Below, piece by piece: positions 2,800-57,082 of a stretch of DNA of 64,000 bases. The stretch comes from a virus: the IMG/VR virus record IMGVR_UViG_3300037010_001275, positions 30,985 through 94,984 of that record; one strand, given 5' to 3'. Made by a program: the position numbers and the translations under genes. The first letter of the stretch is position 1, and each line of letters opens with the position of its first letter. A model generated the notes under the pieces. That model had not been told where the DNA came from, searched no databases, and worked only from the letters and a program-made list of their open reading frames with translations.

Positions 2800-2883
2800 G
2801 CAAAAAAAAAAGTCCGATAGGAGCACGAGGCTCCTATCGGACAAATGCCCCTTTTGAGCGAGGCGGGGGTATAACAAACCTTG

Positions 2884-3693
2884 TCAGGCTGCGAATTTTT
2901 CCTTCAGTGCCGTAAGCTTTTCGAGACTTACTGCAGGCTGAGCAGCAGCTTTGGCGGATGTGAAGTAATCCTCCGGAAAACCGATGTACTCGGTCTTCTT
3001 AAAGGAAGTCGTCAAAGCCTTGACCAATTTCGGGTCAAGACTTACACAGCCTTGCACGAGAGAAGCTTTTGCACCGAGGTTCTGTAGCTCATTTAGGAAC
3101 GTCCAGAAACGGAACATAACCAGCGTGCGGCGGCGCTCGTCGAAGGTCAGTTCCGTCTTCGGGTCAATAGCGTCAATGACGAACTGCGGCAGGTTGATGC
3201 GAGACTTCTCGGCGAATACCGGCATGGTAACGCGCTTCTCTTCGGTTGCATCAGCCTGTTTGTGGAACACGGTGATGACAATGCCATTTTCACCCTCGAC
3301 ATCCTTCAACAGCGGCCAGTCCTCTTTGTCGAAGCCGACGAAACGGACAGTGCTGTTCGGGATCATTCGCTCGATCTGACCGAGCAGATAGCTACCAATG
3401 AGGTAGCCGTTCTCGATGGCGAAGTTGGTTGCGTCAGTAGCAGCGATCAGGGACTCGATGCGGCACAGTGCCTCGAACCACTTCACTGCGCGTCGAATCT
3501 GTGCGTCACTTAAGGGTTTGGGACCCTTTTGATCATCCTTTTTGTGGCGAGAGTTCTGCTGCTGAATACAGCTCTGGACGAAGCGGGGGAGCTGAGGAAA
3601 TTCCGCGCCTTTCTTAGACGGGACCGTCACAATTGCGACGGCTTCGGCCTGGATCTTCTGGGGAGCGTTTTTGTAGTGGAAGGTGACTTTCAT
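2884..3693 (-). CDS. Hypothetical protein (early-type promoter upstream)
   Basis: Long ORF; GAGGA RBS before ATG at 3693; promoter motif at 3774-3800. Confidence 0.7.
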   Translation of the reverse strand: MKVTFHYKNAPQKIQAEAVAIVTVPSKKGAEFPQLPRFVQSCIQQQNSRHKKDDQKGPKPLSDAQIRRAVKWFEALCRIESLIAATDATNFAIENGYLIGSYLLGQIERMIPNSTVRFVGFDKEDWPLLKDVEGENGIVITVFHKQADATEEKRVTMPVFAEKSRINLPQFVIDAIDPKTELTFDERRRTLVMFRFWTFLNELQNLGAKASLVQGCVSLDPKLVKALTTSFKKTEYIGFPEDYFTSAKAAAQPAVSLEKLTALKEKFAA

Positions 3694-3854: not shown

Positions 3855-4589
3855 ATGGTAAAGAAAAAGAAAGACCAGACAAAAGTTATTGATCAAGAAG
3901 TGGAGGAAGCCCAGTCGGAGCAACAAGGTACACCGCCATGGGAAGACCCACCGGCATCTATTGCCGTCGAGATTGACCAGATCGAGGCTCCCGACGACAA
4001 CGTTGAGATTCTTGGGAAGAATCAGGAGTACTCGCTGACAATGTATCTCGACCCTGACGTTGAAGCGAAATTCTTCGTTCGCTTTATTAAGAAGGTCGAG
4101 CAACTGGTGCGATCTAACCCCGATTACAAAGATTATATCACGCTCCTTCGCGATGAGATGGGCCTTGACACCTGTGCTTACCTCGGCAAGGTAGATGTCA
4201 ACAAGGCTGAGATCCAGCTCCATCATTGCATCAGCAATCTTTACACGATCTGTGTCACAGTGTGCAACCGTCTGATGAAGACTGGCAAACAGGTGACAAG
4301 TTTCATCCTCGCCGACGAGGTCGTCAGGCTCCACATGAACGACAAGATCGCCCTTGTCCCGCTCACCACGACGATGCATGAGTTGGTCCACGCTGGAAAG
4401 ATCAAGATCCCGAAGAACGTCATTTTTGGGAACTACCATGAATACTTTGAGGAACATAAAGAGTACATGGATGAGTACGAGCTGAAGCTCTATGAGGATA
4501 TCGAGGGCTTTGAAGTGCTCAATTCCAAGGAGATTTTAATGCTTACTACTCCGATCAAGGAAACCGAAACTAAGGAAGAAGAGTTATGA
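3855..4589 (+). CDS. Conserved hypothetical protein with HNH-like His motifs (paralog 1)
   Basis: TCAYLG...IQLHH...LVPLTTTMHELVH; clearly paralogous to 4881-5564. Confidence 0.7.
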   Translation: MVKKKKDQTKVIDQEVEEAQSEQQGTPPWEDPPASIAVEIDQIEAPDDNVEILGKNQEYSLTMYLDPDVEAKFFVRFIKKVEQLVRSNPDYKDYITLLRDEMGLDTCAYLGKVDVNKAEIQLHHCISNLYTICVTVCNRLMKTGKQVTSFILADEVVRLHMNDKIALVPLTTTMHELVHAGKIKIPKNVIFGNYHEYFEEHKEYMDEYELKLYEDIEGFEVLNSKEILMLTTPIKETETKEEEL

Positions 4590-36817: not shown

Positions 36818-37003
36818 ATGATTACCGTTAATGAAATCGTCGCCAGTCTTCTTTCGGAAGATCCCACTGATCCGAAGCGCCGGGAATTGGAAAAGGGCCT
36901 GACCTATAAGGAGGCCATGAAGCAATTCCCTTACAGTCCGAAGATGGGGGATTGCCGTGGTTTTAGCTATGATCCTGACACCGGGATCGCTACCTGGATG
37001 TAA
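36818..37003 (+). CDS. Small protein with ...LLSE leader
   Basis: Strong GGAGG RBS; MITVNEIVASLLSE. Confidence 0.6.
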   Translation: MITVNEIVASLLSEDPTDPKRRELEKGLTYKEAMKQFPYSPKMGDCRGFSYDPDTGIATWM

Positions 37004-37081
37004 CAAAAAAAAAATTAGGAGAATGCTGCGCAGCATTCTCCTAATTTTACATCCCTTGGAGATACGACTCATGGTAGCATC

Positions 37082-37435: not shown

Positions 37436-37547
37436 TTCATTCTCCTTAAGAAAGGTTGATTGTCCAGTAACGCCGACCAAGGCGATCACTGGAAGAAGTT
37501 TATGCAAATAGGGTTCCGGTATTAACGCCTATTCATCTACAAAAATA

Positions 37548-37574
37548 ATATACTTCCGAAGCCCTCTTAGATAC
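37548..37574 (-). promoter_or_regulatory. Early-type promoter GTATCT-N15-GTATAT
   Basis: Exact motif match. Confidence 0.7.
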
Positions 37575-37616
37575 AGTAAGCTTAAGCTCATTTTCTTCCT
37601 ACAATCATTGGAACAT

Positions 37617-37651
37617 AAAAAAAAAGAAGAGTTACCGAAAGGCAACTCTTC
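37617..37651 (-). terminator. Intrinsic terminator
   Basis: GAAGAGTTGCC-TTTC-GGTAACTCTTC followed by a T run. Confidence 0.85.
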
Positions 37652-37915
37652 ACTGTTTTGCTGCGACCTCACCCCCACCAATCATTTCAGATGGGTTCCT
37701 TCTCTGCCCCAGGCCAGTGGGGTTTGTAGATCTCTCTATCCGCTGGTTCGGAATACCTCTTCTGTTACCTTCTTACTACGTGTTCAGGGGATCTACTCTG
37801 AAGGCATAGCCTAGAGTACCAGTTATATTAGCACTGAGTTACTATACTATAGGCTAGACTTGCGCCTAGTTATAGAAGAGAACCTAGACGACGTCACTGC
37901 TATCGCTTCGGTTCA
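37620..37915 (-). ncRNA. Candidate structured non-coding RNA (about 290 nt)
   Basis: Own promoter and terminator, no credible sense ORF, nested long-range helices. Confidence 0.6.
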
Positions 37916-37923
37916 TGAAAATA

Positions 37924-37950
37924 ATATACCCATAAAGAGTGGGCAGATAC
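37924..37950 (-). promoter_or_regulatory. Early-type promoter GTATCT-N15-GTATAT
   Basis: Exact motif match. Confidence 0.7.
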
Positions 37951-38198
37951 GGTTTTCGCTCGAGCATAGGAAAAGAAAGAAGCCCCCATCTAGTAGCAGT
38001 GGGATCTTTCGATCATTGCTCTACCTATGAGTAGTCAATACTTGTGTTATCTGATACAGAGATACGTTCGTCACAGCCAAGGTGAGGAAGTTTTAGCGCG
38101 TAAAAGAAAAGAAAGGCACACCAAAGATGCTTTCTCCAATAAGGTAACGCAGATTGAACATTTTTCTAGTTAATTTCACACAAGAAAGAGATTGTGCC

Positions 38199-55722: not shown

Positions 55723-56706
55723 TCACTTTACCAGCTTGCGACGCTTGGCGATGCACTCGTCGATGATCTGTTCTTTGGTCTTCCCAAGAAGCTCGAGGGA
55801 GTTCAGTGTCTCCAGTAGAGTATATTGGGCGATGGATTCCTCGAGGATCATGTCTTGTGTATAACCATCCATCCCGGCCTCCATAGCGACAGTCTTGTAG
55901 ACTTCACGAAAGACGGAAGGGGCCTTGGCGACGCGTGCCAGATTGCGATTGCTTCGCTCGGCATATTTATTTTCGGTGTAGGACTCGCGTAAGAATTCCT
56001 GCAGCTCGGCCTTTTCAGCTTCAATCTTCATTGAAGCGATAACTTTCTGCTCGACATCTTCAGTGAGTCGCTGCACGAAGGTTTCGTAAAGACCCTCAGC
56101 GAGGTTGCCAAACTGGCGCTCCTGCCCGTCGATGTCCGGGCCGAACGTGGTCAGCGTGTCCACGAAGTTCTGCACTACGAGGCTGTTCTCGACAGGTTCT
56201 CGAACCGGGCTCATGGAGCTGGCGATCGCCACGGCTAACTGACTGGCGTCAAGCTTCTCGCGGTCGCCGATGTTGAGCATACTGACGCGGGCATATTTGT
56301 CGCCAACGATCATGGAGGTCACGGGGTCCTTGGACACAAGATCCTCGGCAATTTCCAGAAGATTCATGAAGACCTTCGGCTGTTCGGCGAGCGTTGCATT
56401 CTCTTTCAGCTCCTCCTTATTGTCCATCGGCATGGCGTTGTAGGCAGCAGTGGTGATCATGATGGAGAGGCTTTCGAGGAAAGCCTTACGCTTGGCCTGG
56501 TTGGCCTCACGGCGCATCACGCTCTTCGTCTTCACGCGGTGGAAGGTGGAGCCGACCATGCCCTCGAGAAGGCTTTTGGTCTTTTCTTCTTGTTCCTTAG
56601 TGAAACCCTGAGCTTGCTCATTGAGCTCCTTTGCACAAGCTTGCATTCTGCTGGCAAGGCGAACGTTGTAGAACGGTTTGATGATTTTCTTGCTAGATTT
56701 GTCCAT
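55723..56706 (-). CDS. Putative head/core structural protein
   Basis: Many (L/F)xE motifs; late promoter at 56744-56755. Confidence 0.6.
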   Translation of the reverse strand: MDKSSKKIIKPFYNVRLASRMQACAKELNEQAQGFTKEQEEKTKSLLEGMVGSTFHRVKTKSVMRREANQAKRKAFLESLSIMITTAAYNAMPMDNKEELKENATLAEQPKVFMNLLEIAEDLVSKDPVTSMIVGDKYARVSMLNIGDREKLDASQLAVAIASSMSPVREPVENSLVVQNFVDTLTTFGPDIDGQERQFGNLAEGLYETFVQRLTEDVEQKVIASMKIEAEKAELQEFLRESYTENKYAERSNRNLARVAKAPSVFREVYKTVAMEAGMDGYTQDMILEESIAQYTLLETLNSLELLGKTKEQIIDECIAKRRKLVK

Positions 56707-56848
56707 GGTTAGTTCCTTGGCGTTTTAGTGAGGTTGGAAATACTATGAAGCTGTTCCAGGCCCATAAAAAAAAAAGACCCGTGCTGGCGTCTTTGAAACA
56801 AGATGCGTTCTGTTGTTTAGAGTCCGCTTACGCTGGCGGACGTTTGGT

Positions 56849-56956
56849 TTAGGAGATAAATCTAATAATAACTACTTCACCCGCGTCGCGAGCCGCGAGT
56901 GCTGCGCTTAAAGACATGACTCCTATACTGGTCATGACCATTCTCATGCTTATCAT
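56849..56956 (-). CDS. 35-aa hydrophobic peptide (not in ORF track)
   Basis: GGAG RBS; MISMRMVMTSIGVMSLSAALAARDAGEVVIIRFIS; own early promoter and terminator. Confidence 0.45.
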   Translation of the reverse strand: MISMRMVMTSIGVMSLSAALAARDAGEVVIIRFIS

Positions 56957-57015
56957 TTTCAATCTCCGGAGAAAGTTAAGGGACGATGGAACGATCAACT
57001 TCCATCACTAAAATA

Positions 57016-57042
57016 ATATACCCACATGATAGGGATAGATAC
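57016..57042 (-). promoter_or_regulatory. Early-type promoter GTATCT-N15-GTATAT
   Basis: Exact motif match. Confidence 0.7.
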
Positions 57043-57082
57043 GGGAAAGCCCATAGACCATGACGGTCTATGGGCATCCTCG

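What the first reader, a model, noticed from the sequence alone, without database searches (positions are those of the whole stretch)
37617..37950. Stand-alone, ORF-less, multi-branched ~290-nt RNA gene under an early promoter
Seen (minus strand): a perfect early promoter (37924-37950) and a strong terminator (37617-37651) enclose no credible ORF; the first ATG gives 10 codons. The interval folds as nested helices. The 5'/3' closing stem pairs 37890-37900 with 37660-37670, and 37874-37884 pairs with 37694-37703. There is a GCAA-tetraloop hairpin at 37854-37869, a long hairpin 37807-37818/37845-37856, GTAGATC/GATCTAC at 37790-37796/37726-37732, and a CCCCA/TGGGG hairpin at 37707-37722. G-U pairs favour the minus strand. 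An unpaired purine-rich stretch AGAAGGTAA-C-AGAAGAGGTA sits inside one arm. I see no hallmarks of tmRNA, RNase P, tRNA or an intron. Inference: a novel phage ncRNA made immediately after infection, possibly a decoy or sponge for a host protein or defence system.
Basis: partly seen in the sequence, partly recalled or inferred. Interest (0 to 1): 0.8.

Follow-up and report, generated by a model that had tools for sequence, protein, structure and literature searches.

The report
ORF-less early transcription cassette, jumbo phage
An uncultured giant phage related to phiR1-37 and AR9 carries a real promoter-to-terminator unit that should make a roughly 295-base RNA with no protein gene early in infection, but nothing shows that this RNA is intricately folded, conserved beyond near-identical strains, or functional.

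Summary
On the minus strand there is a very good virion-RNA-polymerase (early) promoter: CCGTATCT box at 37952-37945, GTATATTAT core at 37929-37921, N6, predicted start at G37914. A strong intrinsic terminator follows (hairpin 37651-37626, U9 at 37625-37617). Between them lie about 295 nt with no credible ORF, no coding-like codon usage, no protein homologue and no Rfam match.

The "multi-branched structured RNA" part is not supported. Three of the six proposed helices are minor in the ensemble.

No homologue could be fetched beyond near-identical strains, so covariation is untestable. The RNA is absent from the nearest complete relative (263 kb) and from two 81% relatives. It lies in a lineage-specific accessory block whose boundaries coincide with strain-to-strain recombination breakpoints, which resembles T4-type promoter/stem-loop cassettes.

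My best reading, at about 0.45, is a genuine early non-coding transcript of unknown trans-acting role. An empty or decayed cassette is nearly as likely.

The parts
37945..37952 (-). Upstream promoter box CCGTATCT, about 15 nt before the core
   Evidence: Shared by the three best early promoters of the window (37928, 37552, 57020). A cGnAtCT-like box sits at the same distance in many G007 early promoters.
37921..37929 (-). Early (virion RNAP) promoter core GTATATTAT
   Evidence: It matches the AR9 consensus TATATTAT-(6N)-G and the phiR1-37 annotated promoter. It is the only part of the query that matches in the relatives' genomes.
37914..37914 (-). Predicted transcription start (G, preceded by T), 6 nt after the core
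   Evidence: Inferred from the AR9/phiR1-37 rule. The TATATTAT-N5-T-G pattern is seen at most G007 sites. It is not measured here.
37617..37914 (-). Predicted non-coding transcript of about 293-298 nt
   Evidence: No credible ORF. Codon usage is non-coding in all six frames. No Rfam family. No protein family or homologue.
37617..37651 (-). Intrinsic terminator: 11-bp hairpin 37651-37626 plus U9 at 37625-37617
   Evidence: Pair probability is 0.99-1.0. The stem is preserved with a different loop in strain B.
37660..37900 (-). 5'/3' closing stem (37900-37890 with 37670-37660). It encloses the GCAA hairpin (37869-37854), the CCCCA hairpin (37722-37707) and a CCCAUC/GGUGGG hairpin (37695-37674).
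   Evidence: These are the only helices with ensemble probability of at least 0.6. No covariation data exist.
37545..37553 (-). Second early promoter core (P2), driving the 117-aa gene 37435-37082. It lies in tandem about 65 nt after the terminator.
38006..38027 (-). 22-nt box TAGGTAGAGCAATGATCGAAAG, about 76 nt upstream of the P1 core
   Evidence: It recurs (19 of 22) upstream of P2 in strain B, inside a 202-nt insertion. The local score is 29 against 16 +/- 2.3 for shuffles.

Best explanation
This is a genuine stand-alone early transcription cassette of an uncultured phiR1-37/AR9-like jumbo phage. The virion-packaged RNA polymerase would start at G37914 from a consensus bipartite early promoter and stop at the strong hairpin-U9 terminator. 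That releases a non-coding RNA of about 295 nt within minutes of infection. The cassette is a lineage-specific accessory module, one of a tandem pair with the next early cassette (P2 and a 117-aa gene). It was probably moved or kept by recombination at promoter and terminator modules. If the RNA has a function, it most likely acts in trans, by base pairing or by binding a protein, through a loosely structured body closed by a 5'/3' stem. It is not an ornate, thermodynamically exceptional fold. What is shown: the promoter class, the terminator, the absence of coding capacity and the modular boundaries. What is inferred: transcription itself, its timing, the 5' and 3' ends, and any function.
For: The promoter is one of three near-identical copies in the window. 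It matches experimentally mapped AR9 and phiR1-37 early promoters, including the N6-G start rule. The same motif is found in relatives' genomes. The terminator is strong, and its stem is conserved in strain B despite loop replacement. There is no ORF, no coding signal, no protein homologue and no stop reassignment that opens a frame on the transcribed strand. In the complete relative G007, 16 of 20 early-promoter sites are followed within 15-90 nt by an ORF of at least 80 aa. A 295-nt ORF-free terminated unit is therefore an exception, not the default leader. Across environmental strains the RNA shows 7 substitutions and no indels in about 298 nt. The spacer that starts 3 nt upstream of the promoter core has about 25 substitutions and many indels in about 250 nt. 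An ORF-less intergenic RNA of 297 nt is documented by RNA-seq in phiR1-37 (misc_4; PMC4848604), so this kind of product exists in the group.
Against: Folding energy is no better than shuffles. No homologue exists beyond near-identical strains in the phage records, IMG/VR, the JGI metagenome pattern scan or the SRA k-mer index. The RNA is absent from the nearest complete relative and from the 81% relatives. The strain data can be explained by mosaic recombination alone. In run X1 the depth of the single contig spanning the RNA and the upstream spacer (28.7) is close to the sum of the two strains' depths (23.3 + 6.8). That suggests strain B is simply identical there, and one of the seven SNPs would break a proposed helix.
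Confidence: 0.45

Rival explanations
1. Empty or decayed early cassette. Promoter and terminator modules were shuffled by recombination, as with T4-type PeSL cassettes. They now enclose either the remnant of a lost small early gene or junk. A transcript may be made but has no selected function.
For: The neighbouring cassettes of the same promoter family do carry small genes. P57020 has a 35-aa ORF with a Shine-Dalgarno sequence and a terminator, and P2 has the 117-aa gene. The block is absent from relatives. Strain breakpoints sit exactly at the promoter edge (37932) and at the terminator (37586-37641, with a 202-nt insertion that repeats the P1-upstream box). The fold is not special.
Against: There is no residual coding signal in any frame, no paralogue and no protein homologue. 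There are no indels among strains, whereas the adjacent spacer is full of them. The promoter and terminator are both in perfect condition.
Confidence: 0.3
2. Cis-acting unit. The transcript matters only through the act of transcription. It could be a terminated leader whose read-through adds to P2-driven expression of the 117-aa gene. It could also insulate against the divergent late gene, or form an R-loop or primer at a replication origin.
For: P1 and P2 lie in tandem on the same strand, 376 nt apart. The unit lies in a divergent intergenic region next to a late promoter AACA-N6-TA at 38157-38168 (read). T4 origins use promoter-derived R-loops (established knowledge).
Against: The terminator is very strong and is followed by a complete promoter of its own, so read-through is not needed. 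There is no AT-rich unwinding element, and no GC-skew inflection is evident at this point.
Confidence: 0.12
3. It encodes a micropeptide, for example the 11-codon ORF MIGGGEVAAKQ (ATG at 37686-37684) with an AAGGA 11 nt upstream.
For: The ORF lies in the stretch that is nearly identical in strain B. The one substitution there is synonymous (AAA to AAG).
Against: The evidence is a single substitution. The Shine-Dalgarno spacing is poor, and the ORF sits in a predicted hairpin. A 35-aa early ORF elsewhere has a proper Shine-Dalgarno sequence. Most of the 295 nt would remain unexplained.
Confidence: 0.05
4. The region is not a transcription unit. The promoter-like motif and the hairpin co-occur by chance, or the hairpin mainly terminates other transcripts.
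For: No RNA data exist for this phage.
Against: The full bipartite promoter match has only three such copies in 64 kb. The orientation and spacing are correct. The divergence boundary falls exactly at the promoter edge.
Confidence: 0.08

Closest known systems
Early (virion-RNAP) transcription units of Bacillus phage AR9 and Yersinia phage phiR1-37 (PMC5312081, PMC4848604)
   Same: The promoter core is the same (TATATTAT, start at a G 6 nt downstream). The phage group is the same: a virion protein is 44.6% identical to phiR1-37 g233, and the RNAP subunits are split.
   Different: Those units normally head protein genes. Here nothing is encoded. An additional upstream CCGTATCT box is seen here and in G007.
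phiR1-37 misc_4, a 297-nt ORF-less intergenic RNA between g099 and g100 seen by RNA-seq (PMC4848604)
   Same: Same phage group, same size class, no ORF and unknown function.
   Different: There is no sequence similarity: BLAST of the RNA against the whole phiR1-37 genome matches only promoter motifs. misc_4 is very AT-rich, and no consensus early promoter is visible at its start. It is an analogue, not a homologue.
PeSL (promoter-early stem-loop) cassettes of T4-type phages (Arbiol et al. 2010, PMC2839356)
   Same: Strong early promoters and terminator stem-loops flank small accessory units in a plastic region. Strain differences map to the promoter and terminator modules.
   Different: PeSL promoters are sigma-70-like and the element is a compact promoter plus stem-loop. 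Here the promoter is for a phage multisubunit RNAP and about 260 nt of unique sequence lies between promoter and terminator. Mini-circles were not examined.
Known phage or bacterial structured or sponge RNAs (phi29 pRNA, 6S RNA, CsrB/RsmZ, Y RNA, GOLLD/ROOL)
   Same: Stand-alone, ORF-less, promoter-to-terminator genes. pRNA is also an early transcript.
   Different: No Rfam model matches even at E up to 10. There is no exceptional folding energy. Only two GGA motifs are present.

Membership tests
AR9/phiR1-37-type early (vRNAP) promoter | AT-rich core TATATTAT with the start at a purine (G) 6 nt downstream | tested here: met
   The sequence is GTATATTAT-TTTCAT-G37914. Consensus is from PMC5312081 and a phiR1-37 annotated promoter.
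AR9/phiR1-37-type early (vRNAP) promoter | Over-represented motif that recurs in sense orientation upstream of early genes of the same and related genomes | tested here: met
   There are 5 matches against 0.18 expected. Three copies have an extended shared context. G007 has 20 sites, 16 followed closely by ORFs.
AR9/phiR1-37-type early (vRNAP) promoter | Transcript appears early, independently of new protein synthesis | not testable with these tools
   The phage is uncultured, and no RNA run was listed for this stretch.
Intrinsic terminator | G+C-containing stem-loop followed directly by a U tract | tested here: met
   An 11-bp stem, a 4-nt loop and 9 U. Pair probability is about 1.0. The stem is kept in strain B with a changed loop.
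Structured non-coding RNA (any Rfam family) | Match to a covariance model at gathering score | tested here: not met
   Only three tRNAs elsewhere in the window. The best local hits are chance-level, 14-18 bits against gathering scores of 41-75. ARAGORN finds nothing.
Structured non-coding RNA (generic) | Folding energy clearly below that of dinucleotide shuffles | tested here: not met
   z is -0.12 for the body and -1.2 to -1.4 with the terminator.
Structured non-coding RNA (generic) | Compensatory base changes in homologues | not testable with these tools
   Only near-identical strains were found.
Small protein gene or decayed gene | ORF with a start codon and Shine-Dalgarno sequence, coding-like codon usage, or a protein homologue | tested here: not met
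PeSL-type mobile regulatory cassette | Early promoter plus terminator stem-loop modules flanking accessory units, with recombination between modules | tested here: inconclusive
   The tandem P1/P2 cassettes share upstream boxes. Strain breakpoints lie at 37932 and at 37586-37641. The promoter class differs from sigma-70, and no circles or exchanges were observed directly.
phiR1-37 misc_4 RNA | Sequence similarity | tested here: not met
   BLAST against the whole phiR1-37 record matches only promoter motifs. Sequence inspected.

The most novel reading that the evidence does not exclude
This is a lineage-specific early RNA, made by the injected virion RNA polymerase before any phage protein is synthesised. 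It binds and neutralises a host factor or defence component, acting as a decoy or sponge. It is carried on a mobile promoter-terminator cassette that strains exchange as an accessory counter-defence module.
Probability: 0.12. Interest if true: 0.7.

Novelty: new member of a known kind. Interest (0 to 1): 0.35.

Why it matters
If the RNA is functional, it would be one of very few RNA-only early genes of phages that bring their own RNA polymerase. It would also be a handle on what such phages need in the first minutes of infection. As it stands, it is a well-delimited candidate without evidence of structure, conservation or expression. A more solid by-product is the description of a bipartite early promoter (a cGtAtCT box plus ATATATTAT-N5-T-G) in this uncultured clade. 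A second by-product is evidence for cassette-like shuffling of early units at promoter and terminator modules.

Tried and rejected
- **Rfam.** Both the gathering and E-value modes found nothing. ARAGORN found nothing.
- **Similarity to phage records.** blastn in 'distant' mode against 50,697 phage records gave no match.
- **IMG/VR exact patterns.** Two patterns from the 3' and middle parts found only the strain-B contig, or nothing.
- **JGI metagenome 21-mer scan.** It gave 5 hits, none homologous. Four are one cyanobacterial-type chlB-like coding gene (ISEMIGGG, same sense). One is a repeat-rich non-coding contig, L009. Neither shows similarity beyond 21-22 nt.
- **SRA index.** Three DNA runs (microbial mat and sediment) hold near-identical copies. 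No RNA holder is listed.
- **The search for related loci.**
  - The AAA ATPase protein and the ATPase alignment reached only distant relatives at 28-39% identity.
  - The 117-aa protein found only the strain-B contig, at 66% identity.
  - The 238-aa virion protein gave the closer relatives L027, L028 and L029, which lack the RNA, the 117-aa gene and the ATPase.
- **Whole-record BLAST in nine related virus records, including phiR1-37.** Only promoter motifs match.
- **Protein searches of the reading frames.** Pfam and PHROGs on the seven longest stop-to-stop frames, a word-index search and a 1.84-billion-protein phmmer search returned nothing. The one exception is a marginal repetitive hit at E 2.8e-4. 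tblastn of the six frames against all fetched DNA found no paralogue.
- **Internal repeats.** Comparing the two halves of the RNA gave nothing significant.
- **Antisense targets.** A search among 97 phage translation-initiation regions and genome-wide short complementarity did no better than shuffles. The method is crude.
- **Neighbouring gene.** The ESM Atlas was uninformative for the 117-aa gene.
- **Not attempted.** I did not build a covariance model. The full length exceeds the calibration limit, and a single-sequence model made of hairpins would mainly find terminators.

Full report
**What the window is.** The window is part of a 94,984-bp IMG/VR virus record. It comes from a jumbo phage with split multisubunit RNA polymerase genes and a GroEL-like gene. 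The closest cultured relatives are Yersinia phage phiR1-37 (a virion protein is 44.6% identical) and the Bacillus AR9/PBS1 group. This agrees with earlier notes of this scan on the same genome.

**Promoter.** The minus strand reads CCGTATCT (37952-37945), 15 nt, GTATATTAT (37929-37921), TTTCAT, G37914.
- GTATATTATTTT occurs three times exactly, at 37929, 37553 and 57021, all on the minus strand. Two more copies carry one mismatch. With up to one mismatch, 0.18 matches are expected by chance.
- The three exact copies also share the upstream CYGTATCT box at the same distance.
- The experimentally mapped AR9 early consensus is AAATATATATTAT-(6N)-G, with the G as start. phiKZ and phiR1-37 also start 6 nt after the element (PMC5312081).
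- An annotated phiR1-37 promoter reads ATATATTATTTTAATG.
- In the complete 263,413-bp relative G007, 20 TATATTAT sites show cGnAtCT, N13-14, ATATATTAT, N5, T, G. Sixteen of them are followed within 15-90 nt by an ORF of at least 80 aa.

P1 is therefore a consensus early promoter, and G37914 is the predicted start.

**Terminator.** An 11-bp stem with a UUUC loop at 37651-37626 is followed by nine U. Its pair probability is about 1.0. In strain B (L003) the loop is replaced and one G-U pair becomes G-C, while the hairpin and U tract persist. This argues that the terminator is functional.

**Coding capacity.**
- Within 37914-37617 the only ORFs with a canonical start are of 4, 11 and 16 codons. 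One further frame runs through the terminator.
- No single stop reassignment opens a frame on the transcribed strand.
- Codon-usage log-odds were trained on 54 long ORFs of the same genome. All six frames fall in the non-coding distribution: the best is -0.008, against 0.29 +/- 0.12 for in-frame gene windows.
- Pfam, PHROGs, a word-index search, a full phmmer scan of 1.84 billion representatives, and tblastn against all fetched DNA gave no homologue or paralogue.

The "decayed protein gene" refutation is therefore not met.

**Structure.** The fold as a whole is unremarkable.

| Stretch | Observed MFE | Shuffles | z |
|---|---|---|---|
| Body 37914-37655 | -71.0 kcal/mol | -70.4 +/- 5.1 | -0.12 (p 0.41) |
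| Reverse complement of the body | -67.2 kcal/mol | -69.1 +/- 4.4 | +0.43 |
| Full unit with terminator | -87.8 kcal/mol | about -81 +/- 5 | -1.2 to -1.4 |

 Pair probabilities in the ensemble are:

| Helix | Probability |
|---|---|
| Closing stem | 0.7-0.9 |
| GCAA hairpin | 0.7-0.84 |
| CCCCA hairpin | 0.6-0.7 |
| CCCAUC/GGUGGG hairpin | 0.6-0.7 |
| 37874-84 / 37694-703 | 0.08-0.19 |
| Long hairpin | 0.08-0.22 |
| GTAGATC/GATCTAC | 0.07 |

The purine-rich tract is not specially accessible. Rfam gives nothing, and ARAGORN gives nothing.

**Homologues.** None was found beyond near-identical strains.
- The five metagenome 21-mer hits are a chlB-like coding gene in four contigs and one repeat-rich contig. 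None shows further similarity.
- Relatives reached through the adjacent 238-aa virion protein are L027/L028 at 81% and L029 (G007) at 65%. They lack the RNA by blastn and nhmmer. They also lack the 117-aa gene and the AAA ATPase.
- The whole stretch from about 36.75 to at least 39.5 kb (ORF61, the 117-aa gene, the RNA and the ATPase) is therefore a lineage-specific accessory block.
- A graded series of ATPase homologues exists in public metagenomes (P0003-P0009, 95-51% identity).

**Strain comparison.**
- Strain B has the last 75 nt or so of the RNA with two substitutions and a 117-aa protein only 66% identical. It also has a 202-nt insertion between the terminator and P2.
- That insertion carries a 22-nt box, 19 of 22 identical to one lying 76 nt upstream of P1 in the window (score 29 against 16 +/- 2.3 for shuffles).
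- In run X1 the single contig that spans the RNA and the upstream spacer has a depth of 28.7, close to the sum of the two strains' depths (23.3 + 6.8). Strain B is therefore probably identical there, and its "conservation" reflects mosaicism rather than selection.
- Another strain diverges by about 25 substitutions and many indels in about 250 nt, starting exactly at 37932, three nt upstream of the promoter core. The RNA itself carries 7 substitutions and no indels.
- Counting strain B's change in the linker before the terminator, there are 8 substitutions in the RNA. About six fall in positions predicted to be unpaired. One turns a G-C pair into G-U in the closing stem (37899). One would break the 37874-84 helix (37876).
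- The numbers are too small to test any structure.
- The unit behaves as a module bounded by breakpoints at its promoter and its terminator. This is what T4-type PeSL cassettes do (PMC2839356). It is also what purifying selection on the promoter plus RNA would give.

**Context.** The same promoter family drives a 35-aa ORF with a good Shine-Dalgarno sequence and a terminator at 57020-56770. It also drives the 117-aa gene directly downstream of the RNA. The divergent AAA ATPase gene has an AR9-type late promoter AACA-N6-TA at 38157-38168 (read). The roughly 200-nt spacer between that promoter and P1 has no assigned role and is the most variable part.

**Function.**
- No extended complementarity to phage genes or translation-initiation regions exceeds chance.
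- The RNA has no internal repeats and only two GGA motifs.
- phiR1-37 has an RNA-seq-supported 297-nt ORF-less intergenic RNA, misc_4. It shows no sequence similarity to this RNA.
- Earlier notes of this scan report ORF-less early cassettes in other AR9-like jumbo phages. I did not test those notes, and they concern different sequences.

**Verdict.** This is a real, well-delimited, ORF-less early transcription unit. Its status as a functional, structured RNA is unproven. My estimates are:
- 0.45 for a functional, or at least genuinely produced, trans-acting non-coding RNA;
- 0.30 for an empty or decayed cassette;
- 0.12 for a cis-acting role;
- 0.05 for a micropeptide;
- 0.08 for no transcription unit at all.

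Interest is moderate to low until diverged homologues or RNA data are available.

Noticed in passing
window 56770-57045 (minus): A third early cassette of the same promoter family. It has a CCGTATCT box, GTATATTAT-TTTAGT-G, then a 35-aa hydrophobic ORF (MISMRMVMTSIGVMSLSAALAARDAGEVVIIRFIS) with a GGAG Shine-Dalgarno sequence, and a hairpin plus T10 terminator. It lies about 60 nt before the next gene (55723-56706).
   Followed up: partly
window 38006-38027 (minus) and L003 202-224: A 22-nt box TAGRTARAGCARTGATCGAAAG lies 76-89 nt upstream of early promoter cores in two strains. It may be a regulatory site or a footprint of promoter-module duplication.
   Followed up: partly
window 36854-36869 (+) and 37997-38012 (minus): A 16-nt near-identity TCGRAAGATCCCACTG is shared between the coding region of ORF61 (its LLSEDPT leader) and the spacer upstream of P1. 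Two further 12-nt matches lie nearby (36868-79 / 37904-15 and 36942-53 / 37980-91). This may be a trace of an old duplication or recombination.
   Followed up: partly
window 38157-38168 (+): An AR9-type late promoter AACA-TTTTTC-TA lies 30 nt before the likely true ATG (38198) of the AAA ATPase gene. The listed TTG start at 38154 is probably too far upstream.
   Followed up: no
proteins P0010 and P0014: Some homologues of the AAA ATPase are 686-744 aa long and carry intein or homing-endonuclease Pfam domains (PF05203, PF05204, PF14528). In some relatives the gene therefore hosts an intein.
   Followed up: no
L009 (Ga0049105_1032045) 290-970 and 2850-3220: A largely ORF-free 3.8-kb metagenome contig with several 60-100-nt repeat families in both orientations and no Rfam match. 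It shares only a 22-nt identity with the RNA.
   Followed up: partly
G007 (IMGVR_UViG_3300046513_000221) early promoters at 4459(-), 47734(-), 239666(-), 249872(-): Four of the 20 early-promoter sites in the complete relative are followed by 185-380 nt without a sizeable ORF. These could be long leaders, micro-ORFs or further non-coding early units. The one at 239666 holds a 31-codon ORF.
   Followed up: partly
window 37011-37048: A perfect 19-bp palindrome flanked by A and T runs acts as a bidirectional terminator between the convergent ORF61 and the 117-aa gene.
   Followed up: no
L027 8010-8035 (minus): The 81% relative uses a variant early core, ATATATCAT-TATAGT-G. The core motif therefore drifts within the clade.
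   Followed up: no
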